Origin: a phage
Strand: one strand, 5' to 3'
Sequence record: PX068456.1
DNA: 64,000 nt
The position numbers were made by a program, and so were the translations under genes. This document shows, one piece after another, positions 15,136 to 57,728 of the stretch; position 1 is the first letter of the stretch, and every line of letters starts with the position of its first letter. The notes below the pieces were generated by a model. That model was not told the DNA's origin and made no database searches. It was given only the letters and a program-made list of their open reading frames with translations.

Positions 15136-16542
15136 TTATGAAGATACAGTAGAGCTATTGGAATTCTGGCTATTTGCAGTGCGGTTCGTCAGAACGTTTA
15201 CCTGCACTTTAACATAGTGGAAGAATCCAGCATATACGTATTCAATAACCATACCATCAACCAAACGTGCATTGATTTGAGCATCAGTCATATCTGCACG
15301 AGATGGGATATAGATAGTAGGTTTAAGGCTTACCAGAAGTCCTGTTTCCTCTGAAGTTACTACCTCATTGGCAATAGAACCATTGTTAATACCTACTTGG
15401 ATTGGGTTTGCAGTAACAGCCTGACGAATCAAAGCAAGACCAGCAGAAGTTGCTCTAACACCACTACCAAGCATAGATTGCTGTTTAAATAGAGCGAACA
15501 GAGATTCTTCTACGCGAGCTTTGAACCACAGAGCGTGTACCACATAGTCAACATAGAAACCACTAACCATGAAACCATCACGGTAGAACAGAACACCGTG
15601 TTCTTTACGGTAAATATTACCATTCTGTTGAACGATAAAGTTTTCTGCTGTCTGACCAAGTTTTTCAATCTCGATACCAACAAGGGTTTTACCATGCAGG
15701 GTAGTAGTACCTGGTGTTGCAGAGCAGATAGAACCAACTACAGCAGCTTCTGGGAACACTGTATCAGCGTTAGTCATCCACAATGCCATACAAGTGTTAT
15801 TGTAGCCCATATCACCTAAGCGTTCTAGAATGTTATCTTCTTGTTTAGTTAGAACACCTGGTTGCGAGGTAGAGAAGAAATACACTTTATCGTGCTCTTC
15901 TACATAACCTGCTAGATCGATAATATCTTGTTCTGCGTGAGAATCAGATAGTAACCAGAACCAACTGTTTTCATAATCTGCAATTTTAGCAATATCTTCT
16001 AAGATATCATTTGCATATTCTACTTTAGTTGTGAATCCTGAACTATCCATAGTAGCGTATTTACCTGCAACTGGGGTTACAGTGATAACACTACCATCGT
16101 TTGACACAGTGAAGAATTCTTTATACACCATGTCTGCGTTGATCATTTCTGTTAAACCAACAACAATCTCTTGAGCAGTTGCAGTATCATCGGCAACAAA
16201 CTTGAAGTCCTTGCTTTTTGAATTTGCTTTAATAGTGATAACGTAAGTTGCACTATCTTCAACTACTGGAGTTAGAGTTGTTTTAGAAACATCACGCTTA
16301 CCGACGATAACTTGTTCTGGTGCGAACAGACCGTCAAATAGTAGTTTTGCCATTTTATAAGCTGGATCGGCAGTGCCAAAACCTGCTTGCAGAAGTGCGT
16401 CTGAAGAAGTGAAATAATCTACAAGATTGCCAGTAACGTTATGCCCTGTAAGAATTAGAGGGATATCAAACTGTGTTTCACTAATTGAAGTAGCACCGTA
16501 GGTAAGGGTTACGGAAACTACCTTATCACGAAAAGTTGCCAT
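15136..16542 (-). CDS. tail sheath protein
   Basis: 468 aa, upstream of tube-sized gene; size and order typical of contractile tails. Confidence 0.6.
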   Translation of the reverse strand: MATFRDKVVSVTLTYGATSISETQFDIPLILTGHNVTGNLVDYFTSSDALLQAGFGTADPAYKMAKLLFDGLFAPEQVIVGKRDVSKTTLTPVVEDSATYVITIKANSKSKDFKFVADDTATAQEIVVGLTEMINADMVYKEFFTVSNDGSVITVTPVAGKYATMDSSGFTTKVEYANDILEDIAKIADYENSWFWLLSDSHAEQDIIDLAGYVEEHDKVYFFSTSQPGVLTKQEDNILERLGDMGYNNTCMALWMTNADTVFPEAAVVGSICSATPGTTTLHGKTLVGIEIEKLGQTAENFIVQQNGNIYRKEHGVLFYRDGFMVSGFYVDYVVHALWFKARVEESLFALFKQQSMLGSGVRATSAGLALIRQAVTANPIQVGINNGSIANEVVTSEETGLLVSLKPTIYIPSRADMTDAQINARLVDGMVIEYVYAGFFHYVKVQVNVLTNRTANSQNSNSSTVSS

Positions 16543-31459: not shown

Positions 31460-33193
31460 TTAGTCAACCTGGATGGTTCCCATAGTACGAAGAACCTCTA
31501 CGTCAACACGGTTGCGGATATCAGTAAATGTTTCATCACGTCCTTCTACTTGTGGTGTAATAACCTTACCATTCTTGAAGATAACTTGTAACTCATTGTC
31601 TTCATCCTGGATATCTTTAAAAGAAAGATTATCTACAAGAGAAAGATTACCATTGGTATCCTTAACAACCTTAATAAAACCTTTTGCAGAGCGTTTACCA
31701 GGATCAGTTTTAGGCTCCTTACTTACCAAAATTTCGTGTTCACCGATGATGCTACCTGTTGCTTTAACAGCAAAACCAAAAGTATCTCGTGTATTGAACT
31801 GATAAGTATAACTACCAACACCAAATACAATATTGGAAGCTGCAAAACCTTTCTTCTTCAGTCGGCGTAAGATCTCGTGTTCTCGTTCAACAGTAATAGA
31901 ATCACCATAAATCATACCGATATGCTGATCAAGAACCTTGTAGCCTTTTCGGTTGATAGTACCACCAAACACTTCCCAAAGGATTTGAATAGAACCTACT
32001 GCTTCACAATAAGGAATCTCATAAGTTTCATCAATGCAATCAGCAACACTGCAATCCTGAAGAACATTGTAATACTTATTAACATCAGCCAAATGAACTA
32101 CTTCAGTGGCTGTCGCAATACCATTATTTAAGAGGTCTTCATAGTTATCAAAAGATTCAACATTGTATCCTGCAACAACTTTAACCGGATCTCCTGAATC
32201 TGGACGAATAACAAGACGACCATTTCGTGACATAATGGAATCTTTCAATTCTACCAGAATGCGAGTCAATACAGCCCAATAGTCATAAGAGTCTGCTACA
32301 TATGAACAAAAACCTTCTGGAACAATTTCTTCGATATAACGACGAAGAAACTCTTTTTCTGCTACATAACGAAGCCCATCTACATCATCTTTAAGATGTG
32401 GGAAATGTTTCTTCAGATCTTCAACAATAGCTCCAATGTTAGTCGTTGCTACTGAATGTTCTGTTGCCGGAATCGAACCTGCAACAAACTGATCATAATC
32501 AATACCATAATAATCATGCACAGTTTCAATAGCCAGAATATTATCTGTTCCTGTGAACGATGCCAAGTGAGCGATACCACTCTTATAACCATCTTCGATA
32601 TTACTTAAACCACGTAGGCTAAAATCATGACACTGGAAGTTAACGTGATCAATATTATCACACGTTGCCATCGCATATGCCATAGCGATACGCTTATACT
32701 GAAAAGCTGCTGTGGCATTAGTCATTGTCTTCCAAGTTTCATCTGACAACAGTGTTTCCACATAGTTAGTTAACCAAAAGAATTTTTCTAAAGTATTATG
32801 CACAGTAAATACAGGAACACCAATAGGACACAAAACACCCTCTGGCAGAGATCGAACTTCCAGCGGAAGATAACCTAAGTCGTGCAATTCTCCCCAACAT
32901 TCAGCAGAAGGAGCAGAAGCACCTAATGCATTTTTAGACATACGATAAAATTTATTTACTGCTGCACTACGAGACATTTTAAAGAAGCTATCCCACATAG
33001 TTACAAGAGCATCAGTGACTGCTCGACGAATACCTAAAACAATCACACCACGTGCTTCACGATCTGCATAGTGTGCAAAGTTTTTATCATTACGAGGAGT
33101 TAAATTAGAGAAAATAAGTTTTGTATTTTGGTTGTACATCTGCTTGTGACCAGGTTTGTACCAATCAGTAGCAAAAGGTGCAAAAATATTCAT
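31460..33193 (-). CDS. nadV: nicotinamide phosphoribosyltransferase family protein (Nampt/NadV-like)
   Basis: 577 aa; N-terminus MNIFAPFATDWYKPGHKQMY and overall length typical of Nampt/NadV. Confidence 0.75.
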   Translation of the reverse strand: MNIFAPFATDWYKPGHKQMYNQNTKLIFSNLTPRNDKNFAHYADREARGVIVLGIRRAVTDALVTMWDSFFKMSRSAAVNKFYRMSKNALGASAPSAECWGELHDLGYLPLEVRSLPEGVLCPIGVPVFTVHNTLEKFFWLTNYVETLLSDETWKTMTNATAAFQYKRIAMAYAMATCDNIDHVNFQCHDFSLRGLSNIEDGYKSGIAHLASFTGTDNILAIETVHDYYGIDYDQFVAGSIPATEHSVATTNIGAIVEDLKKHFPHLKDDVDGLRYVAEKEFLRRYIEEIVPEGFCSYVADSYDYWAVLTRILVELKDSIMSRNGRLVIRPDSGDPVKVVAGYNVESFDNYEDLLNNGIATATEVVHLADVNKYYNVLQDCSVADCIDETYEIPYCEAVGSIQILWEVFGGTINRKGYKVLDQHIGMIYGDSITVEREHEILRRLKKKGFAASNIVFGVGSYTYQFNTRDTFGFAVKATGSIIGEHEILVSKEPKTDPGKRSAKGFIKVVKDTNGNLSLVDNLSFKDIQDEDNELQVIFKNGKVITPQVEGRDETFTDIRNRVDVEVLRTMGTIQVD

Positions 33194-33264: not shown

Positions 33265-34158
33265 TTAAAAATTCCACACGTATGGAGATACAATTTGTTG
33301 TTGCAAATCTGACTGATTCTTAACAAGAACACCAGAATCTTCTTGGATGTTATCTTCCCACACATTAAGAGAATGAATGCAGTCAAAGTGCTCACTTAAC
33401 TCTTTAAGACCTTTAGAAAAGATACCGTGCGTAACATATAGCTCAATCTTACCTGCGTTACGAGCACGTAGCACTTTAGCCAATTCGATAAAAGTTCTAC
33501 CACCATCACAGATATCATCTACGATCATCAGGTTACGCTTATTGAAATCCTGTACAGAAATGTCTGTACGAACAATAGCACCTGTTGCGGTATCTCTAAC
33601 CTTCTCTGCACAGAACACATCTAAAGACATTTTCTTAGATAATTTAAATATTTTCTTAAGAGCACCACCATCAGGGCTAACAAGAGCAAAATTCTCCATA
33701 CGTAACTTCCACTTTAAAGTTTCGTAAGCAATCTCTTCTTGAGGTATTACACAGAGTCTGTCAAACACTGCTGGAGTAACATCACTATGCGGATCAGCAA
33801 CGATAACACGTGAGAAATTTAATGAATTAATTATAGAAGCAAATGCTTTAACTCCGAATGCTTCCCCAGGCTCACACACTCTGTCTTGTCGTGCATACGG
33901 CACATACAACATGAGTAAATCAACACAATATGGTTTATGATATAGCATATTGTCCAATGCATTCTTAGTCATAACCAAAGTCATCAAGTCTTTAGCAGAT
34001 CTTACTTCTAAAGTGAGTAAGATTCTGTCTGTAGTATGATTGAAACCTGATAGATTCGTATCTAACTGAACATGTTGTTCTCCACCAGAGAATGTAAACA
34101 CTTTAACGTCTACATCAGTAACATAACAGTCAACACCATGCAGAATACTAACTTTCAT
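33265..34158 (-). CDS. prs: ribose-phosphate pyrophosphokinase family protein (Prs-like; possible ADP-ribose pyrophosphokinase)
   Basis: 297 aa; PRPP-binding loop IVDDICDGGRTF and Prs-like fold signature; adjacent to Nampt-like gene. Confidence 0.75.
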   Translation of the reverse strand: MKVSILHGVDCYVTDVDVKVFTFSGGEQHVQLDTNLSGFNHTTDRILLTLEVRSAKDLMTLVMTKNALDNMLYHKPYCVDLLMLYVPYARQDRVCEPGEAFGVKAFASIINSLNFSRVIVADPHSDVTPAVFDRLCVIPQEEIAYETLKWKLRMENFALVSPDGGALKKIFKLSKKMSLDVFCAEKVRDTATGAIVRTDISVQDFNKRNLMIVDDICDGGRTFIELAKVLRARNAGKIELYVTHGIFSKGLKELSEHFDCIHSLNVWEDNIQEDSGVLVKNQSDLQQQIVSPYVWNF

Positions 34159-47676: not shown

Positions 47677-48648
47677 ATGACAAATTCTATTTCAGCAAAA
47701 ATTATTGCACACTCTCAAACATCCGAAGGTAAGGATATTGTTACCTTTGAACTTGAATATCCTCGAATCATTCACTCTGAATTGATGACGCATCGTTTGT
47801 TTTCTCGTAATGCCGCATCAAGTCGAGCTATCCCTGTTAAAACTCTGATTGAAATGGTACGGCAATCTCCAGCACGTCCTTATCGTTTTGGTGCTAACCA
47901 ACCAGGTATGCAAGATAAAGGCACAGATCACGATGCCCTGATTGATGCAGGTTACACTGCAAAAGAATGGTGGGACTTGGCTGCGCTAAGTGCTGCACGT
48001 TTTGCAGAAGAGTTTGCCCTTGCTGGGTATCATAAACAGGTTGCAAACCGCCTACTAGAACCATTTCAGCGTATGAAGACTGTAGTAACCACTACAGAGC
48101 TAGAAAACTTCTTGTGGTTGCGCGTAGATGCTGATGCAGATCCTACTATTGAGGCTCTTGCTAAAGAAATTAAAAAACTGTATGAATCTTCTGAACCATA
48201 TCTTCTTTTCCCAGGGGAATGGCATACACCTTACGTTAATCGTGATCGAGATCCAGAAACTGGTATGATCCGTTATTTCTTAGGTGAAACCTTCTCCAAC
48301 GAGAAAATGTTGACAGAAGATGAAGCAAAAGCTATTTCAGCTTCTTGTTGCGCTCAGGTAAGTTATCGTAAGTTGAATGATACTAAAGATAAAGCATTGG
48401 ATATCTATTCTCGTTTGCTGTCTGGACAAAAGGTACATGCATCTCCGTTTGAACACCAGGCAACGCCAATGAAAGAAATGGATTTGTCAGGATTAAAACA
48501 ACAGAAAGGTGGTATTAATATTCCTCCGTTCCCTTCCTCTTGGGAAGAAGGTATTACACATATGGATCGTAAACATCGTTTGTGGAGTGGAAACTTCTGT
48601 GGTTGGATTCAACATCGTCAACTTTTGACGAACCATACAAAATGGTGA
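47677..48648 (+). CDS. thyX: FAD-dependent thymidylate synthase (ThyX-like)
   Basis: THRLFSRNAASSR matches ThyX signature RHRxxSxNxxSxR pattern. Confidence 0.6.
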   Translation: MTNSISAKIIAHSQTSEGKDIVTFELEYPRIIHSELMTHRLFSRNAASSRAIPVKTLIEMVRQSPARPYRFGANQPGMQDKGTDHDALIDAGYTAKEWWDLAALSAARFAEEFALAGYHKQVANRLLEPFQRMKTVVTTTELENFLWLRVDADADPTIEALAKEIKKLYESSEPYLLFPGEWHTPYVNRDRDPETGMIRYFLGETFSNEKMLTEDEAKAISASCCAQVSYRKLNDTKDKALDIYSRLLSGQKVHASPFEHQATPMKEMDLSGLKQQKGGINIPPFPSSWEEGITHMDRKHRLWSGNFCGWIQHRQLLTNHTKW

Positions 48649-49428: not shown

Positions 49429-51690
49429 GTGACTCAGTATCTAAGCAAATCTATCCGTTATGTAACAAAAACAAACGGCAAGAAAGAAGAATTTAATCCA
49501 GAAAAACTTCGTAAATGGTCAGAGTTTGCTGCTGGTAAATTAAATTGGTCTGAAATTGAACTTGAAGCTGTTAAACGTTGTTACGACGGTGTGCCTACTC
49601 GTGATTTACATAAAGCTATGATAGCAGCATGTATTGATAAGAAAGATCAGGCATATAGTGATATGGCAGGTCGGTTACTTCTTGGTATGATTTATAAACA
49701 GGCTCATGGGGGATATCACAATATCCCCTCCCTCCTGGATTTCTACAATATGTCTGTAAGTAAAGGCTATTGGGGAAAAATGGATTATACAGAAGAAGAA
49801 ATTATTGAGATTGGTAAAATTGTCAATCACGATAAAAACCTAACTTATGGTTATTCCGTACTGCGCCAGATGGTTGATAAGTATCTTGTGAAAGATGCGA
49901 TCAATGATGTTGTTTTTGAATCACCACAGTTTTTATTCATTGGTGTAGCAATGAAGGTAATGGAAATCCAACCAAAAGATCGCAGAGTAGAAGACATTAA
50001 ACGTCTATATACCTACGTAAGTGATCTTAAGATTAATTTACCATCGCCTTATTTAACAACTTTGCGTACTAAGATTAAAGGTAGTGCTTCTTGTTGTCTG
50101 TTTAGAGCAGATGATACAGCAGAATCTTTAGCAATTGCTAACTATCTTGCGCATGAATATACATTGAATAATGCAGGTATTGGTGTTAACCTCCAAACCC
50201 GTGCTACAGGACAAGGTGTTAAGAACAACCGTATCGTTCACGGTGGTCTTTTACCATATCTGAAATGGATGGAAACAAGTGTTGGAGCATCAAAACAAGC
50301 AAGTCGTGGTGGAAGTGCAACAGTAACGTTCACAATATTAGAACCTGATTTTGAAGATCTGGTACGTTTGAAAAACCCAACTACTGTTAGTGAAAAACGA
50401 GTAGATAAACTTGATTACTCTATCGTAGTAAACAATGCTTTCCTGCGCCGTGCAGCAAAAGGTAAAGATTGGATGCTAGTTAGTTATGACGAAGCACCAG
50501 AACTCTATGAGGCGCTTTATAAAAGCGAGGAAGAGTTTGAAGAAGTATATGAAAAAGTTAGTCGCAAACGAATTAAGAAAAAGTTTGTAAAAGCACGAGA
50601 TCTTCTGGCAGAAATTATTACACAAAGAGCAGAGACAGGACGTATTTATATGTTCTTTGCGGATAATGCTAATAAGCATACTCCGTTTAAGGATGTTATT
50701 TATCAGTCAAACTTGTGCCAAGAAATTTTCTTACCTACGAAAGCATTTCACAATATGACTGATCTTTTCACAGGTGAGAATACAGAAGATCAAGAATTGG
50801 CATTATGCTTCCTGTCTTCTATTGTAGCTGGTCGTGTTACACCAGAAGAATATGAAGATGTTGCATATTATACAGTTCTAACTATTGATAATGTTATTGA
50901 AACAATGCAGTATCCGTTTAAACATAACGAAATAACTGCTAAAGCACGTAGGTCTATCGGTGTAGGTATTACAAACCTTGCACATTATCTGGCAAGTAAT
51001 TTTGTTACTTATTCAGATCCTTACGGCAAAAAACTAATTCACGAATTAGCAGAAAGGCATTATTACTGGTTAGCAAGAGCTTCTCTTCGTTTGGCAAAAG
51101 AGAAGGGTAATGCAGAATGGATGCATAAAACCAAATGGCCTGAAGGATGGTTGCCTATTGACACCTACGCTAAAGCTGTAGACGATATTGGCAATTTTAA
51201 ACTTAAAATGGATTGGGAAGGTTTACGACAAGATATCATTGCACAAGGCGGTATCCGAAATAGTGTATTAGCAGCTATTGCTCCGAATGAGTCCAGTAGT
51301 CTTGTAAGTAATACGACTAACTCTGTGTATCCTGTACGTGATACTATAGTTTATAAACAAAGCCAAAAAGGTAATGTCCTGTTTATTGTGCCAGACTATG
51401 ATAAACTAAAAGATATTTACCAATCGGCTTGGGATACGCCAGATAAAGATATGGCTGAAGCATATGGATTATTGACTAAATTCTTAGATCAAGGTGCATC
51501 ATGTGATAAGTGGATTGACTATTCTAAGATGGAAGGTGGTCGTTTATCCATTAAATCAGAAATGCAATATATCCTTCAGTTTGCAAAACTTGGTGGTAAA
51601 TCTTTGTACTATCTAAATAGTAGAACAAAATCGGCAACCTCACTCGCTCAAGAAGATGAAGAATCTGGTTGTGAGGCTTGTAAGATGTAA
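49429..51690 (+). CDS. nrdA: ribonucleoside-diphosphate reductase alpha subunit (class I)
   Basis: N-terminal ATP-cone-like segment, 753 aa, C-terminal Cys pair CEAC; GTG start after TAGGAGAGG. Confidence 0.8.
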   Translation: MTQYLSKSIRYVTKTNGKKEEFNPEKLRKWSEFAAGKLNWSEIELEAVKRCYDGVPTRDLHKAMIAACIDKKDQAYSDMAGRLLLGMIYKQAHGGYHNIPSLLDFYNMSVSKGYWGKMDYTEEEIIEIGKIVNHDKNLTYGYSVLRQMVDKYLVKDAINDVVFESPQFLFIGVAMKVMEIQPKDRRVEDIKRLYTYVSDLKINLPSPYLTTLRTKIKGSASCCLFRADDTAESLAIANYLAHEYTLNNAGIGVNLQTRATGQGVKNNRIVHGGLLPYLKWMETSVGASKQASRGGSATVTFTILEPDFEDLVRLKNPTTVSEKRVDKLDYSIVVNNAFLRRAAKGKDWMLVSYDEAPELYEALYKSEEEFEEVYEKVSRKRIKKKFVKARDLLAEIITQRAETGRIYMFFADNANKHTPFKDVIYQSNLCQEIFLPTKAFHNMTDLFTGENTEDQELALCFLSSIVAGRVTPEEYEDVAYYTVLTIDNVIETMQYPFKHNEITAKARRSIGVGITNLAHYLASNFVTYSDPYGKKLIHELAERHYYWLARASLRLAKEKGNAEWMHKTKWPEGWLPIDTYAKAVDDIGNFKLKMDWEGLRQDIIAQGGIRNSVLAAIAPNESSSLVSNTTNSVYPVRDTIVYKQSQKGNVLFIVPDYDKLKDIYQSAWDTPDKDMAEAYGLLTKFLDQGASCDKWIDYSKMEGGRLSIKSEMQYILQFAKLGGKSLYYLNSRTKSATSLAQEDEESGCEACKM

Positions 51691-51698
51691 TGAAACTA

Positions 51699-51720
51699 GG
51701 GGGCTTTGTCCCCCTTTCTT
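51699..51720 (+). terminator. stem-loop/terminator between nrdA and downstream genes
   Basis: GGGGGC-TTTG-TCCCCC followed by TTTCTT. Confidence 0.45.
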
Positions 51721-51730
51721 AAGGAGGAAT

Positions 51731-52066
51731 ATGCCTACATTAGTTGTATTACCTGGGGCAACACCACAAAGACGTTGGGGAAATTATACACTGGTAGATA
51801 GTAAAGATTTTACATTCGATTGGTGTTGCCATTATATTGCAGGTTTTCAATTTTCCAGTGTTGAAATATGGGCTTCCAATGATCCAGAAGCTACCTGGTA
51901 TGCTTTAACCAGGGCAAGATATGATGGAGAGGTTACTGTACTACTCACAAAGAGTGTATGGAACGCATTAGAGAAGGCTTACATAGAGAATGGTATGGAG
52001 AGAAAACACATTGATACAATAAAAGCAATGTGTGATATTGTGGAGGATTTAAATGGCAGCAATTAA
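51731..52066 (+). CDS. hypothetical protein between nrdA and nrdB
   Basis: Start re-chosen at ATG with AAGGAGG upstream (MPTLVVLPG...). Confidence 0.45.
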   Translation: MPTLVVLPGATPQRRWGNYTLVDSKDFTFDWCCHYIAGFQFSSVEIWASNDPEATWYALTRARYDGEVTVLLTKSVWNALEKAYIENGMERKHIDTIKAMCDIVEDLNGSN

Positions 52067-54009: not shown

Positions 54010-54207
54010 ATGATGCTAGATCAACTGATCAATGCTCCTCGCGTAACAGTAAGTCCAAAAACATTTGCATCACTTTTAGAAGATGCTAAAGAGGTTTATA
54101 ACTTTACTGAAGAAGAGCTTCCTGTTCCTGTTGAAAAAGGTTCCAGATGGTTGTTTTATGAAGGTATTATTTTTACCGAAGGGAATAATTGGAAGGAGAC
54201 TAAATGA
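54010..54207 (+). CDS. hypothetical protein
   Basis: Start re-chosen at ATG after AAGGAGG. Confidence 0.4.
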   Translation: MMLDQLINAPRVTVSPKTFASLLEDAKEVYNFTEEELPVPVEKGSRWLFYEGIIFTEGNNWKETK

Positions 54208-55193
54208 AATACTTAGTAACAGGTGGTTTAGGCTTTATTGGAAGTGCGGTAGTTCGTTTCCTGGCTAAAAATACTAAGAATGATATTTACGTTATAGATA
54301 AATGGGGTTACGCTTCAGATCCTAGAAATTTATCAGAAACACCCAATGTAAAGTTTTGTCGTGTTGACTTGACAAATGCGCAGTTAACTGCTAAGATTGT
54401 GGCAGATGTTAATCCAGATTATATAATGCATCTTGCAGCAGAAAGTCACGTAGATAATTCAATAGCATCACCGAGTGTTTTTATAAATTCAAATATTGTT
54501 GGGACATTTAATCTCCTAGAAGCTGTTCGTTTAATGGGAGATAAATCAAATCTTAAAATGTTCCATCATATTTCAACAGATGAAGTATATGGTGATATGG
54601 AAGAAGGGGATTATCCGTTTACAGAACAGAATCCTTATAAGCCAAGTAGTCCATATGCTGCATCTAAGGCAGCAAGCGATCATTTGGTAAGAGCGTGGCA
54701 TCGTACTTATGGTATTCCGACAGTTATAACAAATTGTTCAAATAATTTTGGAGCATATCATCATCCAGAAAAACTAATACCTAAAACGATAACAAATATC
54801 TTGATGCATAAACCAATCCCTGTTTATGGTAATGGTCTTCAAGTAAGAGACTGGTTATACGTTGACGATCACGCAGAAGCATTACACCTAGTAGTAACTA
54901 AAGGCAAATCTGGAGAAACATATAATATTGGGAGCAGAAACCCTAGAACTAATATTGATGTAATCTATATGATTTGTGATTATATGGATGCGGTGTATCC
55001 ATCTGAAACAGATGCTTGTAGCCTCATTGAGATGGTTACAGATAGACCTGGGCATGATTTAAGATACGAAGTGAATCCTTATAAGATTGAAAAGGAATTA
55101 GGGTGGAAAGCTAAAGGCACATTTGAAGAAAAACTTTATTCAACCATTGATTGGTATGTAGATAACAAAGAGTGGTGGGAAAATAAAGTTTAA
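54204..55193 (+). CDS. rmlB: dTDP-glucose 4,6-dehydratase
   Basis: N-terminal Rossmann [10 protein letters not shown], catalytic YxxxK (YAASKAA), 329 aa. Confidence 0.8.
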
Positions 55194-55201
55194 GGAGGAG
55201 T

Positions 55202-56071
55202 ATGAAAGGTATTATCTTAGCAGGTGGTAGTGGAACAAGACTTTACCCAGTTACTAAAGGGGTTAGTAAACAACTATTACCAATTTACGATAAACCTATG
55301 ATTTATTATCCACTCTCTGTCCTAATGCTTTCTGGAATTAGGGAAATACTAATAATTACAACACCAGAAGATCAAATTAATTTTGTAAATCTTCTAGGTG
55401 ATGGTTCTTCTTTTGGTATTTCCCTACAGTATGCAATACAAGAAAGCCCGAAAGGTTTAGCAGAAGCGTTTATTATTGGTGAGAGCTTTATTGGCGAAGA
55501 TTCTGTAGCACTTGTGCTAGGTGATAATTTATTCTTTGGTCAGAGTTTTGGTAGCATTTTAGATTCTGCTAAAGAACATATTGAAAAGAATGGTGGAGCT
55601 AATATTTTTGGGTATCACGTAAATGATCCTGAAAGATTTGGTGTTGTTGAGTTTGATTCTGAAGGTACAGTGGTGAGTATTGAAGAAAAACCAAAAACAC
55701 CAAAAAGCAACTATGCAGTTACAGGCTTGTACTTTTACGATAATTCTGTTATACAGAAAGCTAAGAGCGTTAAACCTTCTGCTAGAGGGGAGTTAGAGAT
55801 TACAGATATAAATGAGATGTACTGGAAAGAAAAGACTTTACGTGTCTGTAAACTAGGAAGAGGTTTCACTTGGCTGGATACAGGAACACATGAAAGTCTT
55901 ATGGAAGCATCTCAATTTGTTCATGCAATAGAAAAGCAACAAGGTATGAAGGTTGCATGCCTAGAAGAGATTGCTTTTAAAAATGAATGGATTACTTTAG
56001 ACTCTGTAAAAAGTTCTGGAGAGGTTTTAAGTAAAACAGACTACGGTAAGTATTTACTTAAATTAAAATAA
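55202..56071 (+). CDS. rmlA: glucose-1-phosphate thymidylyltransferase
   Basis: [18 protein letters not shown] signature N-terminus, 289 aa. Confidence 0.85.
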
Positions 56072-56083
56072 AGGGGGAATTAA

Positions 56084-56638
56084 ATGATTCAAGCAACAAA
56101 AATCGAAGATTTGTTGATCATTCAACCTGACGTTTACGGAGATGAACGTGGCTTTTTCTTAGAAAGTTTTAATCAGGCTTTATATGATCAATACATAGGT
56201 AAACAAAACTTTGTCCAGGATAACCACTCACGTTCTATTCGAGGAGTTCTACGTGGGCTTCATTTTCAAAAGAAAAACCCACAAGGGAAGTTAGTACGTT
56301 GTGTTCGTGGTGAAGTTTATGATGTTGCTGTAGATATTAGGGTTGGTAGTCCAACATTTGGAGAATGGGTAGGTGTTCTCTTATCTGAAAAGAATAAAAC
56401 ACAATTTTGGATTCCTCCTGGTTTCGCTCATGGCTTTGTTGTGATTAGCGACATTGCTGATTTTGAATATAAATGTACAGAATATTACGATCCGACTTCA
56501 GAGTGTAGTCTTGCGTGGAATGATCCAGATATCAATATAGATTGGGGTTTTGATTTAATCTTTAATGATATTAATTTTAAACCTATCTTGTCACAAAAAG
56601 ATCAGCAAGCCAAAACACTAAAGGAGATCATATTTTGA
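56084..56638 (+). CDS. rmlC: dTDP-4-dehydrorhamnose 3,5-epimerase
   Basis: Cupin-type RGLHFQ ... PPGFAHGF motifs, 184 aa. Confidence 0.8.
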   Translation: MIQATKIEDLLIIQPDVYGDERGFFLESFNQALYDQYIGKQNFVQDNHSRSIRGVLRGLHFQKKNPQGKLVRCVRGEVYDVAVDIRVGSPTFGEWVGVLLSEKNKTQFWIPPGFAHGFVVISDIADFEYKCTEYYDPTSECSLAWNDPDINIDWGFDLIFNDINFKPILSQKDQQAKTLKEIIF

Positions 56639-57465
56639 CAAAATTTTTAATCTTTGGTTCAAAAGGTCAATTAGGACAGTCTTTGGCAAAAGTTGCGCCC
56701 GAAGATGTTATTTTGATTGAAGCAAGTGATGTAGACATTACCAACTTTAAAGATGTTATGAATAGTCTTGTACAGCATGTGCCTGATGTTGTTGTGAATT
56801 GTGCGGCTTACACGGCAGTAGATAAAGCTGAAGAAGATGTTAACACCTGTATAAATGTTAATGCATACGGTGCAACAAACATTGCCAAAGCATGTAATGA
56901 TTTACTGATACAGTTTGTACATATTTCAACAGACTATGTTTTTGATGGGCATGTTGCTGGCACAGAAGAGAGTAAAACAAACCCCTTGAACACCTACGGT
57001 TACAGTAAACAATTAGGTGAAACTTTAGTACAAACAGTTTGTCCTACAGCACTTATTATCAGAACAGCTTCTGTTTATAGTGAGTTTGGACATAACTTTT
57101 TGAAAACTATGTTGGAACGCTACAACGGTGGTCAAAAAGAATTTAATGTAGTATGTGATCATTTATCATGTCCTACTTATGCACCTGATCTTGCAGAAAC
57201 AATTTTTAAACTTGTAAAAGATGGTGTAAATAGTAAAATTGTACACTATGCAGGTGCAGATTATATTTCTTGGTATGATTTTGCACGAAAGATATTTCTT
57301 GTTATAGATTTATCTGTTACAGTTAATCCTGTATCTGCTTCAACCTATAATTCCAAAGCAGTCAGACCAGCAACATCTTATTTAAAAACAGATCCTACTT
57401 TAAATCCGCGAAGTGTTGATAGCGGTATTGTAAGAACTTTAACTATACTTTTAAACAAGGAGTGA
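56635..57465 (+). CDS. rmlD: dTDP-4-dehydrorhamnose reductase
   Basis: 276 aa; Rossmann N-terminus IFGSKGQLG; completes rml gene set; TTG start. Confidence 0.7.
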   Translation: MTKFLIFGSKGQLGQSLAKVAPEDVILIEASDVDITNFKDVMNSLVQHVPDVVVNCAAYTAVDKAEEDVNTCINVNAYGATNIAKACNDLLIQFVHISTDYVFDGHVAGTEESKTNPLNTYGYSKQLGETLVQTVCPTALIIRTASVYSEFGHNFLKTMLERYNGGQKEFNVVCDHLSCPTYAPDLAETIFKLVKDGVNSKIVHYAGADYISWYDFARKIFLVIDLSVTVNPVSASTYNSKAVRPATSYLKTDPTLNPRSVDSGIVRTLTILLNKE

Positions 57466-57728
57466 AAATGAATTTTATTATCTACGGTAAACCAAATTGT
57501 CCTTTCTGCACTAACGCTAAGACTCTACTGGAACAGCGTGAACAGGATTTTAAATATCTTACCTTAGATGAAGACTATTCTTTAGATCAGATTCAGAATC
57601 TGGTTTTAGAGAAAACAGGTGTTCTGCCACGTACCTTTCCTCAAATTTTTGTGGAAGATGGTGAACATCTAACCCACGTAGGAGGTTTTTCTGAACTACG
57701 TGAATTCATGGCTCAGATTGCGGAGTAA
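57462..57728 (+). CDS. glutaredoxin-like protein
   Basis: 88 aa with CPFC active-site motif near N-terminus. Confidence 0.65.
   Translation: MKMNFIIYGKPNCPFCTNAKTLLEQREQDFKYLTLDEDYSLDQIQNLVLEKTGVLPRTFPQIFVEDGEHLTHVGGFSELREFMAQIAE

What the first reader, a model, noticed from the sequence alone, without database searches (positions are those of the whole stretch)
54204..57465. Complete dTDP-L-rhamnose biosynthesis operon (rmlB-rmlA-rmlC-rmlD) inside the phage nucleotide-metabolism block
Four tightly coupled genes with clear signatures (Rml[19 protein letters not shown]; Rml[11 protein letters not shown]/YxxxK; RmlC cupin RGLHFQ; RmlD Rossmann) lie between nrdAB/thyX/tdk and glutaredoxin/lysozyme. 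A lytic phage making an activated deoxysugar from dTTP is unusual because it drains the same dTTP pool that the neighbouring genes build. Plausible roles: donor for glycosylating phage DNA (a hypermodified base), glycosylating virion proteins, or remodelling host surface polysaccharide. No glycosyltransferase is recognisable in this window, so the acceptor is unknown.
Basis: partly seen in the sequence, partly recalled or inferred. Interest (0 to 1): 0.75.

Follow-up and report, generated by a model that had tools for sequence, protein, structure and literature searches.

The report
Phage-encoded dTDP-rhamnose pathway, already known
This phi92-like coliphage really does carry a complete, intact four-gene pathway for making the activated sugar dTDP-L-rhamnose; this has been published before, and the evidence suggests it feeds a set of phage sugar-transferases elsewhere in the genome and probably does not decorate the phage DNA.

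Summary
Four co-directional, near-abutting ORFs (54204-57465, +) pass NCBI's curated equivalog cut-offs for RmlB, RmlA, RmlC and RmlD and keep the motifs that carry their catalytic residues.

The window is a phi92-like myophage (Justusliebigvirus), 99.5% identical to Salmonella phage UAB_1. The operon is annotated in more than 50 GenBank records. Olsen et al. 2020 called it "peculiar" and proposed the same DNA-glycosylation idea, so the feature itself is already known.

New here:
- The genome has four soluble glycosyltransferases about 70 kb away, outside the window, beside primase and DNA polymerase.
- rml and this GT cassette are co-inherited across Stephanstirmvirinae. Both are reduced in parallel in a Klebsiella-phage clade (rmlC-rmlD only; two GTs).
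- In phiTE-like relatives an RmlB-like dehydratase sits inside the cassette.
- No hydroxymethylase or TET/JBP enzyme was found. The literature shows phi92-likes are highly sensitive to RM and BREX and are not among the BrxU-sensitive phages.
- In small phages the core GT family sits in GT plus methyltransferase cassettes inside the head-morphogenesis module.

Best reading: a self-supplied rhamnose-glycan system, with virion proteins the favoured acceptor, host envelope glycans second and DNA unlikely. The acceptor remains untested.

The parts
54204..55193 (+). rmlB, dTDP-glucose 4,6-dehydratase (329 aa)
   Evidence: TIGR01181 441.7 bits against a cut-off of 365.1. Aligns end to end with S. enterica RmlB 1g1a at E 1e-116, with the STDE triad and the YAASK (YxxxK) motif conserved. 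62-63% aa identity to Phapecoctavirus orthologues.
55202..56071 (+). rmlA, glucose-1-phosphate thymidylyltransferase (289 aa)
   Evidence: TIGR01207 473.6 bits against a cut-off of 360.65. E 4e-125 to S. enterica RmlA 1iim, with the GGSGTRLYP loop conserved. 71-72% aa identity to Phapecoctavirus orthologues.
56084..56638 (+). rmlC, dTDP-4-dehydrorhamnose 3,5-epimerase (184 aa)
   Evidence: TIGR01221 260.4 bits against a cut-off of 155.75. E 6e-64 to S. enterica RmlC 1dzr. The motifs that carry the catalytic His (RGLHFQ), Lys (QGKLVRC) and Tyr (YKCTEYY) are conserved in the alignment. 100% aa identity in many Justusliebigviruses despite synonymous change.
56635..57465 (+). rmlD, dTDP-4-dehydrorhamnose reductase (276 aa; TTG start overlapping the rmlC stop by 4 nt)
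   Evidence: TIGR01214 253.9 bits against a cut-off of 224.05, the smallest margin of the four. Best solved relatives are B. anthracis 3sc6 and C. acetobutylicum 1vl0 RmlD. GxxGxxG, STDYVF and YGYSK (YxxxK) are conserved.
54010..54207 (+). conserved small ORF (65 aa as annotated in UAB_1 and alia) whose stop overlaps the rmlB start; membership uncertain
   Evidence: Annotated as a hypothetical protein in UAB_1 (gp067) and alia (gp193). No Pfam hit for the longer 96-aa reading. It keeps its position directly upstream of rmlB.
57462..57728 (+). glutaredoxin, immediately downstream and overlapping the rmlD stop; a neighbour that probably serves the ribonucleotide reductase, not the rhamnose pathway
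   Evidence: Pfam Glutaredoxin, E 6e-13. A small ORF annotated glutaredoxin or thioredoxin-domain follows rmlD in Phapecoctavirus, and a same-sized ORF does so in the Klebsiella relatives.

Best explanation
The four genes are a genuine, selected dTDP-L-rhamnose pathway: Glc-1-P + dTTP -> dTDP-Glc -> dTDP-4-keto-6-deoxy-Glc -> dTDP-4-keto-rhamnose -> dTDP-L-rhamnose. It has been resident in Stephanstirmvirinae phages since before the phi92-like, phAPEC8-like and Klebsiella-phage lineages split.

It is the donor-supply half of a two-part, host-independent glycosylation system. The transferase half is a cassette of soluble cytoplasmic glycosyltransferases lying about 70 kb away beside the primase/helicase and DNA polymerase genes, outside this window. 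In phage alia these are gp047 (small, D-x-D), gp046 (GT-A, DxD), and gp045 and gp044 (GT4-like GT-B paralogues).

Together they would build a rhamnose-containing glycan in the infected cell. Carrying its own pathway makes this broad-host-range phage independent of whether a given host makes dTDP-rhamnose.

Shown: enzyme identity and intactness, purifying selection, vertical retention, co-distribution and parallel reduction with the GT cassette, and physical linkage of a related dehydratase to the cassette in distant relatives.

Inferred: that the GTs use dTDP-rhamnose, and what the acceptor is. I favour phage virion proteins (a glycan coat, as in mycobacteriophages and giant viruses). Lipid-linked host envelope glycans come second. 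DNA is unlikely.
For: Enzymes:
- All four pass the curated equivalog cut-offs, and the motifs that carry their catalytic residues are conserved against solved structures.

Selection and age:
- Same syntenic slot (nrdB - small ORFs - rml - grx - lysozyme - phoH - hslV) in Justusliebigvirus, Phapecoctavirus and the Klebsiella relatives.
- Between genera, pN is 0.17-0.33 against saturated pS of 0.64-0.88. Within the genus there are 26 synonymous and 12 non-synonymous differences, with dN/dS 0-0.24.
- GC3 is 0.20-0.25, the same as neighbouring phage genes.

GT cassette:
- Annotated in alia, with PHROG GT families at E 1e-79 to 1e-149.
- The model of a gp046 orthologue (77% identical) is a GT-A fold, pLDDT 89.6. 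The model of a protein 99% identical to gp044 is a GT4-like GT-B, pLDDT 94.1.
- None has a TM-grade hydrophobic segment.

Coupling of rml with the cassette:
- Near-identical phyletic distributions. RmlC: 55 records at >=95% identity plus 77 at 60-80%. gp046: 56 plus 71. gp044: 54 plus 74.
- Klebsiella phages KP2025, KP13-26, FKP3 and phi1_175008 keep only rmlC-rmlD. RmlA has at most 2 Klebsiella records against 8 for RmlC.
- KP2025's cassette is cut down to gp047-like plus gp045-like.
- In two phiTE-like contigs an RmlB-like 4,6-dehydratase (STDE and YxxxK kept, 27% identical to RmlB) lies inside the cassette between the gp047-like and gp046-like genes. In a third short contig it lies directly upstream of the gp046-like gene.

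Against DNA as acceptor:
- Literature on RM, BREX and BrxU sensitivity.
- No hydroxylating enzyme in the batch Pfam scan.
- No T-even DNA GT among the top 50 structural matches of either model.

For virion proteins as acceptor:
- Distant gp047-family members sit in GT + Methyltransf_24 (+/- deacetylase) cassettes between terminase and portal/capsid genes in 3 of 3 small-phage contigs sampled.
- That is the architecture of Corndog's cassette, whose gp38 is reported essential for capsid glycosylation.
- gp046 is distantly homologous to Hades gp98, E 5e-13. That GT occupies the cluster-F genome position corresponding to Che8 gene 108 in Che8's GT cassette.
Against: - No experiment links these GTs to dTDP-rhamnose or to any acceptor.
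- Co-distribution within one viral subfamily is phylogenetically non-independent.
- In phi92-like genomes the cassette sits in the replication module, not the structural module. That position would also suit a DNA-modifying role.
- gp046 gives weak hits to two DNA-GT families: Pfam TAGT at 24.1 bits (cut-off 27.5) and PHROG 842 at E 4e-5.
- There is no sequence homology to the proven Che8 or Corndog GTs.
- The S/T-rich sheath C-terminal tail that might have marked a glycosylation site is absent in Phapecoctavirus, which has the full system.
- RmlD clears its cut-off by only 30 bits, so a related 4-reductase giving 6-deoxy-L-talose cannot be formally excluded.
Confidence: 0.55

Rival explanations
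1. Host surface remodelling. The soluble phage GTs use phage-made dTDP-rhamnose to extend a lipid-linked host glycan at the cytoplasmic face of the inner membrane, for example Und-PP-GlcNAc made by WecA, or the LPS core. Host flippase and ligase then export it. This would mask the LPS-core or ECA receptors these phages use, which would protect progeny from adsorbing to infected cells and debris, or exclude competitor phages.
For: - phi92-like phages depend on the LPS core and appear to target ECA.
- GT4-like GT-B and GT2-like GT-A enzymes are the classes that build O-antigen and ECA units. Structural neighbours include PglA, PimA/B and TarM.
- The rmlC-rmlD-only Klebsiella variants would draw on dTDP-4-keto-6-deoxyglucose, the host's ECA precursor made by RffH/RffG (established enterobacterial biochemistry).
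- T4-like cyanophages carry comparable 6-deoxysugar gene islands.
Against: - No initiating transferase, flippase, polymerase, ligase or Gtr-type membrane protein was found.
- The phage is virulent, so the benefit window is short.
- Distant cassette homologues sit in head-morphogenesis modules, not beside lysis or adsorption genes.
Confidence: 0.2
2. DNA hypermodification. As first proposed by Olsen et al. 2020, rhamnose is transferred to a hydroxymethylated or otherwise activated base in phage DNA, by analogy with T4 glucosyl-hmC.
For: - The operon lies in the nucleotide-metabolism block, and the GT cassette lies next to primase and DNA polymerase.
- gp046 has sub-threshold similarity to TET-associated and T-even DNA GT families.
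- The phage encodes a C5-cytosine methyltransferase and other DNA MTases.
- Proposed in print.
Against: - phi92-likes are 'exceptionally susceptible' to type I, II and III RM.
- phiPau and phiPATM are BREX-sensitive by about 7 logs and are not among the phages sensitive to the modification-dependent BrxU.
- No ThyA-type hydroxymethylase and no TET/JBP or 2OG oxygenase among 53 unassigned proteins; the full 24-family list is.
- The only thymidylate-synthase-like gene is a ThyX type.
- No DNA GT appears among the top structural matches.
- A rare, motif-restricted modification is not excluded.
Confidence: 0.12
3. Metabolic interference without a phage glycan product. The enzymes divert host dTDP-4-keto-6-deoxyglucose or Glc-1-P away from ECA, O-antigen or glycogen pools, or they buffer thymidine nucleotides. 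The GT cassette is functionally unrelated.
For: - The RmlC/D-only variants act exactly at the branch point shared with ECA synthesis (established pathway knowledge).
- The operon is co-located with dTTP-building genes.
Against: - Diversion alone does not explain retention of all four steps under purifying selection in two genera.
- It does not explain the parallel reduction of rml and the GTs.
- It does not explain a dehydratase embedded in the GT cassette in distant relatives.
Confidence: 0.08
4. Decaying or neutral cargo. A recently captured bacterial rfb fragment with no role in the phage.
For: RmlA is about 66% identical to an enterobacterial chromosomal RmlA, so the ultimate origin is bacterial.
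Against: - All four ORFs are intact with conserved catalytic motifs.
- The syntenic position is fixed across genera at 52-76% aa identity with saturated synonymous sites.
- Codon composition is fully phage-like.
- The operon is present in 130 or more phage genomes.
Confidence: 0.02

Closest known systems
Bacterial rml (rfb) dTDP-L-rhamnose operons (RmlA/B/C/D of Salmonella, E. coli, Pseudomonas)
   Same: The same four enzymes, with the same catalytic motifs. All score above the NCBIfam equivalog cut-offs. Best solved relatives are the S. enterica enzymes for RmlA, RmlB and RmlC. The genes form one tightly packed operon.
   Different: - Encoded by a virulent phage, inside its nrd/tdk/thyX block, and not in an O-antigen or capsule locus.
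- No adjacent glycosyltransferase, flippase or polymerase.
- The gene order is B-A-C-D.
- RmlB is about 30 aa shorter than the enteric enzyme (329 against 361 aa).
- RmlD's nearest solved relatives are Firmicute enzymes.
The same operon as already described in phi92-like and phAPEC8-like phages (Olsen et al. 2020, Viruses 12:986; Maffei et al. 2021, PLoS Biol 19:e3001424)
   Same: It is the identical feature, at 98-99.5% nucleotide identity to 54 GenBank phage records. [quoted passage not shown]
   Different: Nothing differs in the feature itself. This analysis adds the link to the distant GT cassette, the rmlC/D-only natural variants and the context of distant homologues. None of the papers I could read mentions any of these.
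Mycobacteriophage virion glycosylation cassettes (Che8 gp108-110; Corndog gp35-38; Freeman et al. 2023 as cited in PMC12363180 and PMC11256854)
   Same: - Phage-encoded multi-GT cassettes that work in the cytoplasm.
- Corndog's cassette (O-methyltransferase plus three GTs inside the head module) has the same architecture as the gp047-family cassettes in contigs L019, L021 and L022.
- gp046 is distantly homologous to the cluster-F GT Hades gp98.
   Different: - No detectable sequence homology to the Che8 or Corndog proteins themselves.
- I did not check whether those phages encode a sugar-nucleotide pathway.
- In phi92-likes the cassette is in the replication module.
- Virion glycans have not been demonstrated for any phi92-like phage.
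Giant-virus autonomous glycosylation (Mimivirus and chlorovirus nucleotide-sugar pathways plus GTs; review PMC4691112, appeared in the search but was not read)
   Same: A virus that encodes both the activated-sugar pathway and the transferases, so glycosylation is independent of the host. From my own knowledge, this includes L-rhamnose in Mimivirus. A Bandra megavirus GT is among the best structural matches of the gp046-family model.
   Different: From my own knowledge, the giant viruses make UDP-L-rhamnose with a two-enzyme eukaryote-type route. Here the route is the bacterial four-enzyme dTDP pathway. The hosts are eukaryotic, and there is no demonstrated relationship by descent.
T-even DNA glucosylation and TET/TAGT phage DNA glycosylation systems
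   Same: Virulent phages with early-region GTs. gp046 gives weak hits to TAGT and to the beta-glucosyl-HMC alpha-glucosyltransferase family.
   Different: - No hydroxymethylase or TET partner.
- The TAGT score is below the gathering threshold.
- The gp044-type GT-B resembles GT4 enzymes and not T4 AGT or BGT.
- The phages are RM- and BREX-sensitive.
- T-even systems use host UDP-glucose and do not encode a sugar-nucleotide pathway.
Cyanophage 6-deoxysugar / 'LPS' gene islands (e.g. Synechococcus phage S-H68)
   Same: Virulent myophages carrying rmlB-, rmlC- and rmlD-like genes as auxiliary genes.
   Different: - Only 46% identity for RmlC.
- The genes are embedded with other sugar-tailoring genes (galE, a CDP-sugar dehydratase, a cytidylyltransferase) next to tail-fibre genes.
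- No rmlA was annotated in that island.
- An independent acquisition.

Membership tests
[quoted passage not shown] | Each of the four enzymes scores above the curated equivalog cut-off of its NCBIfam/TIGRFAM model | tested here: met
   TIGR01207 473.6 bits (cut-off 360.65); TIGR01181 441.7 (365.1); TIGR01221 260.4 (155.75); TIGR01214 253.9 (224.05).
[quoted passage not shown] | The motifs that carry the catalytic residues are conserved: RmlB T-D-E and YxxxK; RmlA GGxGTRL loop; RmlC His/Lys/Tyr; RmlD T and YxxxK with GxxGxxG | tested here: met
   Alignments to 1g1a, 1iim, 1dzr and 3sc6 show ISTDEVYG and YAASK; GGSGTRLYP; RGLHFQ, QGKLVRC and YKCTEYY; STDYVF, YGYSK and GSKGQLG. The assignment of catalytic roles to these motifs is from my knowledge of the enzyme families.
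[quoted passage not shown] | The product is dTDP-L-rhamnose, i.e. the reductase has RmlD and not Tll-type stereochemistry, and enzymatic activity is shown | not testable with these tools
   Sequence cannot fix the stereochemistry of the 4-reduction. RmlD clears its cut-off by only about 30 bits. This needs an enzyme assay or NMR/MS of the sugar nucleotide.
T-even-type DNA glucosylation system | A dCMP or dUMP hydroxymethylase (ThyA homologue) that creates the acceptor base | tested here: not met
   No such family appears among the 24 Pfam families found in 53 unassigned alia proteins, nor in the annotation. The only TS-like gene is a weak ThyX-type match.
T-even-type DNA glucosylation system | Phage DNA is protected from classical restriction | tested here: not met
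   Literature, not my experiment. phi92-likes are 'exceptionally susceptible' to RM systems. phiPau and phiPATM are BREX-sensitive by about 7 logs and are not BrxU-sensitive.
TET/JBP-associated DNA glycosylation (C5-MTase + TET + TAGT) | A TET/JBP (5mYOX) dioxygenase encoded together with a C5-MTase and a TAGT-family GT | tested here: not met
   A C5 DNA methylase is present, but there is no Tet_JBP or 2OG-oxygenase hit. The TAGT hit of gp046 is 24.1 bits, below the 27.5 gathering score, and covers only residues 16-79.
Mycobacteriophage-type virion glycosylation cassette | Phage-encoded cytoplasmic GT cassette | tested here: met
   Four GT genes. GT-A and GT-B folds were modelled at pLDDT 89.6 and 94.1. 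No TM segments.
Mycobacteriophage-type virion glycosylation cassette | Homology to the GTs shown to glycosylate virions (Che8 gp108-110, Corndog gp36-38) | tested here: not met
   BLASTP and phmmer give no hit at E<=0.01. Only gp046 matches Hades gp98, E 5e-13.
Mycobacteriophage-type virion glycosylation cassette | Glycans covalently attached to capsid or tail proteins | not testable with these tools
   Needs glycoproteomics of purified virions. A sequence proxy (S/T-rich sheath tail) did not track with the system.
Seroconverting Gtr-type O-antigen modification | Membrane-embedded GtrA flippase, GtrB bactoprenol glucosyltransferase and GtrC transferase | tested here: not met
   No such Pfam families were found. 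All GTs lack TM-grade hydrophobic segments: maximum 19-aa Kyte-Doolittle value <=1.21.

The most novel reading that the evidence does not exclude
phi92-like, phAPEC8-like and related Klebsiella phages run a fully autonomous protein-glycosylation system: their own dTDP-L-rhamnose supply plus two to four soluble GTs. It coats virion proteins with a rhamnose-containing glycan. This would be the first such system in phages of Gram-negative bacteria and a bacterial-virus counterpart of giant-virus self-glycosylation. The Klebsiella clade would be a streamlined version that taps the host's ECA precursor through RmlC/D alone.
Probability: 0.35. Interest if true: 0.7.

Novelty: already known. Interest (0 to 1): 0.4.

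Why it matters
The operon itself is textbook enzymology in a known place. What remains open is what a virulent, unusually broad-host-range coliphage family does with its own activated rhamnose.

If the product is a virion glycan, it bears directly on phage therapy. Justusliebigvirus and Phapecoctavirus isolates are repeatedly proposed as therapeutics, and in mycobacteriophages glycan coats reduce antibody recognition.

If instead it remodels LPS or ECA, it would be a lytic-cycle receptor-masking mechanism.

Either way, the natural four-gene and two-gene variants and the defined GT cassette give clean genetic handles. The common statement that these phages carry 'rhamnose-modified DNA' should be treated as unsupported.

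Tried and rejected
1. DNA-modification reading. I looked for hydroxymethylase or TET/JBP enzymes by a batch Pfam scan of 53 unassigned alia proteins and found none. The TAGT hit of gp046 is sub-threshold. Fold searches of the gp046-family and gp044-family models returned no DNA GT in the top 50.
2. Direct nucleoside data. The 2026 Durham-collection DNA-modification paper analysed no Justusliebigvirus. The phi92 genome paper, Freeman 2023 and Kelly 2023 are not held.
3. Homology to proven virion-glycosylation GTs of Che8 and Corndog: none.
4. Sequence-level PDB relatives of the GTs: none. The profile comparison of the gp047 family against the gp046 family was not significant.
5. The S/T-rich sheath C-terminal tail as a possible glycosylation site. 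It is absent in Phapecoctavirus DE16, which has the full system, so it does not track. tblastn coverage was uninformative because the low-complexity filter masked the tail.
6. The promoter and terminator scan around the operon gave no more sites than shuffled controls, so I claim no transcription-unit boundaries.
7. 'Acinetobacter phage MD-2021a' as an independent phage rml example was rejected. The record is a bacterial chromosome contig.
8. The literature search for glycan density or glycoproteins in phi92 virions found nothing relevant.

Full report
**1. Observation.**

The ORF listing shows four co-directional ORFs at exactly the reported coordinates: 54204-55193, 55202-56071, 56084-56638 and 56635-57465. 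The gaps are 8 nt, 12 nt and a 4-nt overlap. The array is also translationally contiguous with a small upstream ORF and with the downstream glutaredoxin.

Each protein exceeds the curated NCBIfam equivalog cut-off for RmlB, RmlA, RmlC and RmlD respectively, and Pfam agrees.

Alignments to solved structures show the motifs that carry the catalytic residues are conserved:
- RmlB: STDE and YxxxK.
- RmlA: GGSGTRLYP.
- RmlC: the His, Lys and Tyr motifs.
- RmlD: GxxGxxG, STDY and YxxxK.

**2. What genome this is, and what is already known.**

Megablast places the window in Justusliebigvirus (phi92-like myophages, Stephanstirmvirinae). It is 99.5% identical to Salmonella phage UAB_1. Fifty-four phage records cover at least 80% of the locus at 95% identity or better, and most already annotate the four enzymes.

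- Olsen et al. [quoted passage not shown] They called its presence in the DNA-metabolism region 'peculiar' and proposed rhamnosylation of hydroxymethylated nucleotides.
- Maffei et al. 2021 refer to a 'putative dTDP glycosylation machinery'.
- A 2024 paper speaks of 'rhamnose modification in Stephanstirmvirinae'.

In the literature I could search, the function is unresolved.

**3. The missing glycosyltransferases.**

The window corresponds to phage alia positions 21111-1 and 147009-106989. In alia, four consecutive genes annotated as glycosyltransferases (gp044-047, 43.5-46.7 kb) lie next to the primase/helicase and DNA polymerase. That is about 20 kb beyond the window's left end. tblastn of these four proteins against the window finds nothing.

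- All four hit PHROG glycosyltransferase families at E 1e-79 to 1e-149. Pfam support is weak.
- An AlphaFold model of a protein 99% identical to gp044 (pLDDT 94.1) is a GT-B fold. It is closest to GT4-type enzymes: GlgM, BshA, MshA, PglA, GtfC, SdgB and TarM. T4 AGT and BGT are not in the top 50.
- A model of a gp046 orthologue (77% identical, pLDDT 89.6) is a minimal GT-A with an invariant DDD motif. It is closest to the viral GT-A A197 of STIV and to generic GT-A enzymes. Among viral structures it is closest to unnamed viral proteins, a megavirus GT and GT2-like proteins of uncultured phages.
- gp047 has no Pfam or PDB match, but it has an invariant D-x-D and a GT2-like motif.
- None of the four has a transmembrane-grade hydrophobic segment.

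**4. Are rml and the GT cassette one system?**

Three lines of evidence say yes.

(a) Co-distribution. RmlC, gp046 and gp044 are found in nearly the same sets of phage records: about 55 Justusliebigvirus, about 71-77 Phapecoctavirus-like, and a handful of Klebsiella relatives.

(b) Parallel reduction.
- Klebsiella phages KP2025, KP13-26, FKP3 and phi1_175008 have a contiguous nrdB - small ORFs - rmlC - rmlD - grx arrangement with no rmlB or rmlA.
- RmlA has at most 2 Klebsiella-phage records against 8 for RmlC.
- KP2025's GT cassette is reduced to a gp047-like and a gp045-like gene.
- By established enterobacterial biochemistry, the host's ECA enzymes RffH and RffG supply dTDP-4-keto-6-deoxyglucose. 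RmlC and RmlD alone then suffice to make dTDP-rhamnose. This implies that rhamnose itself is the selected product.

(c) Physical linkage in distant relatives.
- Two phiTE-like contigs have GT proteins only 43-50% identical to the alia ones. In both, an RmlB-like 4,6-dehydratase (27% identical to RmlB, STDE and YxxxK kept) sits inside the cassette, between the gp047-like and gp046-like genes.
- A third, short contig (gp046-like 35% identical) has an orthologous dehydratase directly upstream of its gp046-like gene.

Evidence (a) is phylogenetically non-independent. Evidence (b) and (c) are less so.

**5. Selection and age.**

- The operon occupies the same slot in Justusliebigvirus, Phapecoctavirus and the Klebsiella clade.
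- Between genera the proteins are 52-76% identical, with pN 0.17-0.33 against saturated pS 0.64-0.88.
- Against alia there are 26 synonymous and 12 non-synonymous differences, with dN/dS 0-0.24.
- GC3 (0.20-0.25) matches the neighbouring phage genes.

This is an old, vertically inherited, purifying-selected module and not recent cargo.

**6. What is the acceptor?**

DNA looks unlikely.
- phi92-likes are 'exceptionally susceptible' to RM systems.
- The Durham phages phiPau and phiPATM name-match the Justusliebigvirus records Paula and PATM in my hit lists. They are BREX-sensitive by about seven orders of magnitude and are not among the phages hit by BrxU, the modification-dependent type IV enzyme.
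- A batch Pfam scan of 53 unassigned non-structural alia proteins returned only 24 families. None was a hydroxymethylase, a TET/JBP or 2OG oxygenase, a further GT, a sugar-tailoring enzyme, or a flippase, polymerase or ligase.
- In favour of DNA there remain the cassette's position beside replication genes and gp046's sub-threshold hits to two DNA-GT families. A rare motif-specific modification is not excluded, and no direct nucleoside analysis of a phi92-like phage was found.

Virion proteins are my favoured acceptor.
- I sampled five distant gp047-family contexts. In three small-phage contigs the gene heads a cassette of GT2 or TOD1-type GTs, Methyltransf_24 enzymes and, in one, a polysaccharide deacetylase. 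Each cassette is placed between the terminase and the portal/capsid genes.
- In a fourth, the gene sits with GT-D-like and TOD1-type GTs, a DegT aminotransferase and an NDP-sugar dehydratase/reductase.
- The fifth repeats the phiTE-like layout, with the dehydratase inside the cassette beside primase and DNA polymerase.
- The head-module architecture matches mycobacteriophage Corndog: an O-methyltransferase plus three GTs between portal and protease. Corndog gp38 is reported as essential for capsid glycosylation.
- gp046 is distantly homologous (E 5e-13) to Hades gp98. That GT occupies the cluster-F genome position corresponding to Che8 gene 108 in Che8's GT cassette.

Against the virion reading:
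- There is no sequence homology to the Che8 or Corndog proteins themselves.
- An S/T-rich sheath tail does not track with the system.

Host envelope remodelling (rival 1) fits the GT classes and the ECA-precursor logic. It lacks any export or ligation component, and nothing in the gene context points to it.

**7. On the 'dTTP drain' argument.**

By established biochemistry, RmlA consumes dTTP, but glycosyl transfer releases dTDP, which nucleoside-diphosphate kinase recycles. The nucleotide is a carrier, not a consumed substrate. Placing rml beside tdk, thyX and nrd is better read as co-expression with its cofactor supply than as a paradox. This is inference.

**8. Verdict.**

- The feature is already known.
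- The functional question is open and now sharper: a two-part, self-supplied rhamnose-glycan system with natural four-gene and two-gene variants, probably not acting on DNA.

Interest is moderate at 0.4. The existence of the operon would not surprise a specialist, but its role is directly testable and relevant to phages used therapeutically.

Noticed in passing
outside the window: phage alia NC_052655 43544-46720 (L002); UAB_1 OL656106 ~103.5-104.2 kb: A four-gene glycosyltransferase cassette (gp047 small D-x-D GT, gp046 GT-A, gp045 and gp044 GT4-like GT-B paralogues) sits beside the primase/helicase and DNA polymerase. It is conserved across Stephanstirmvirinae.
   Followed up: yes
L013 (Klebsiella phage KP2025) 5983-7391; also KP13-26, FKP3, phi1_175008: A clade of Klebsiella-infecting relatives carries only rmlC-rmlD at the syntenic site, and a reduced two-GT cassette. 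This is a natural minimal version that would rely on the host for dTDP-4-keto-6-deoxyglucose.
   Followed up: yes
L007 2103-5316 and L023 9001-12209 (metagenomic phiTE-like contigs); L009 3-2483: An RmlB-like NDP-hexose 4,6-dehydratase (below the dTDP-glucose dehydratase cut-off, 27% identical to the window RmlB) is embedded inside, or directly beside, the homologous GT cassette.
   Followed up: partly
L019 8001-12823, L021 2060-5502, L022 6045-7590: Distant gp047-family GTs head cassettes of GT2 or TOD1-type GTs, Methyltransf_24 enzymes and, in L019, a polysaccharide deacetylase. The cassettes lie between terminase and portal/capsid genes of small phages. They look like uncharacterised virion-glycosylation cassettes.
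   Followed up: partly
window 47677-48648 (+): The 'thyX' is 323 aa and gives only a weak, partial Pfam Thy1 match (37 bits, model positions 59-186 of 191). It is a divergent ThyX-like protein whose activity should not be taken for granted.
   Followed up: no
window 51656-52066 (+), between nrdA and nrdB: The ORF in this gap varies in length among near-identical phages: 136 aa here, 218 aa in UAB_1 and 111 aa in alia. A GC-rich hairpin lies at 51699-51713 just after nrdA. This may be a decaying mobile or homing element.
   Followed up: no
window 31460-33193 (-) and 33265-34158 (-): By alia's annotation (gp232, gp231) these are a nicotinamide phosphoribosyltransferase and a ribose-phosphate pyrophosphokinase. 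They form an NAD+ salvage pair of the kind linked, as I recall it, to countering NAD-depleting defences.
   Followed up: no
window 15136-16542 (-), tail sheath C-terminus: The sheath ends in an S/N-rich extension (NSQNSNSSTVSS). Klebsiella phage KP13-26 has an S/T-rich one, and Phapecoctavirus DE16 has none. It is lineage-variable and does not correlate with the rml/GT system.
   Followed up: yes
phage collection records MG065639, MG065645, MG065656, MG065689, MG065650: Unannotated 'Campylobacter phage' records are 99.2% identical to this coliphage locus, or are Phapecoctavirus-like (MG065650). The host label is probably wrong, through contamination or mis-assignment.
   Followed up: no
phage collection records CAKLQH020000002.1 and AGRM01000003.1: 'Acinetobacter phage MD-2021a' and a Salmonella houtenae contig in the phage collection are bacterial chromosome sequence (glnE, ilvE and aspS flank the rml genes). 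They are not independent phage rml examples.
   Followed up: partly
phage alia genome (L002-L004), partly within the window's equivalent region: The batch Pfam scan found NADAR, Macro, ComF-like PRTase, CapR-homology and DUF4326 domain proteins, plus a C5-cytosine and an N6/N4 DNA methyltransferase, among the 'hypothetical' genes. Several are candidate anti-defence functions.
   Followed up: no
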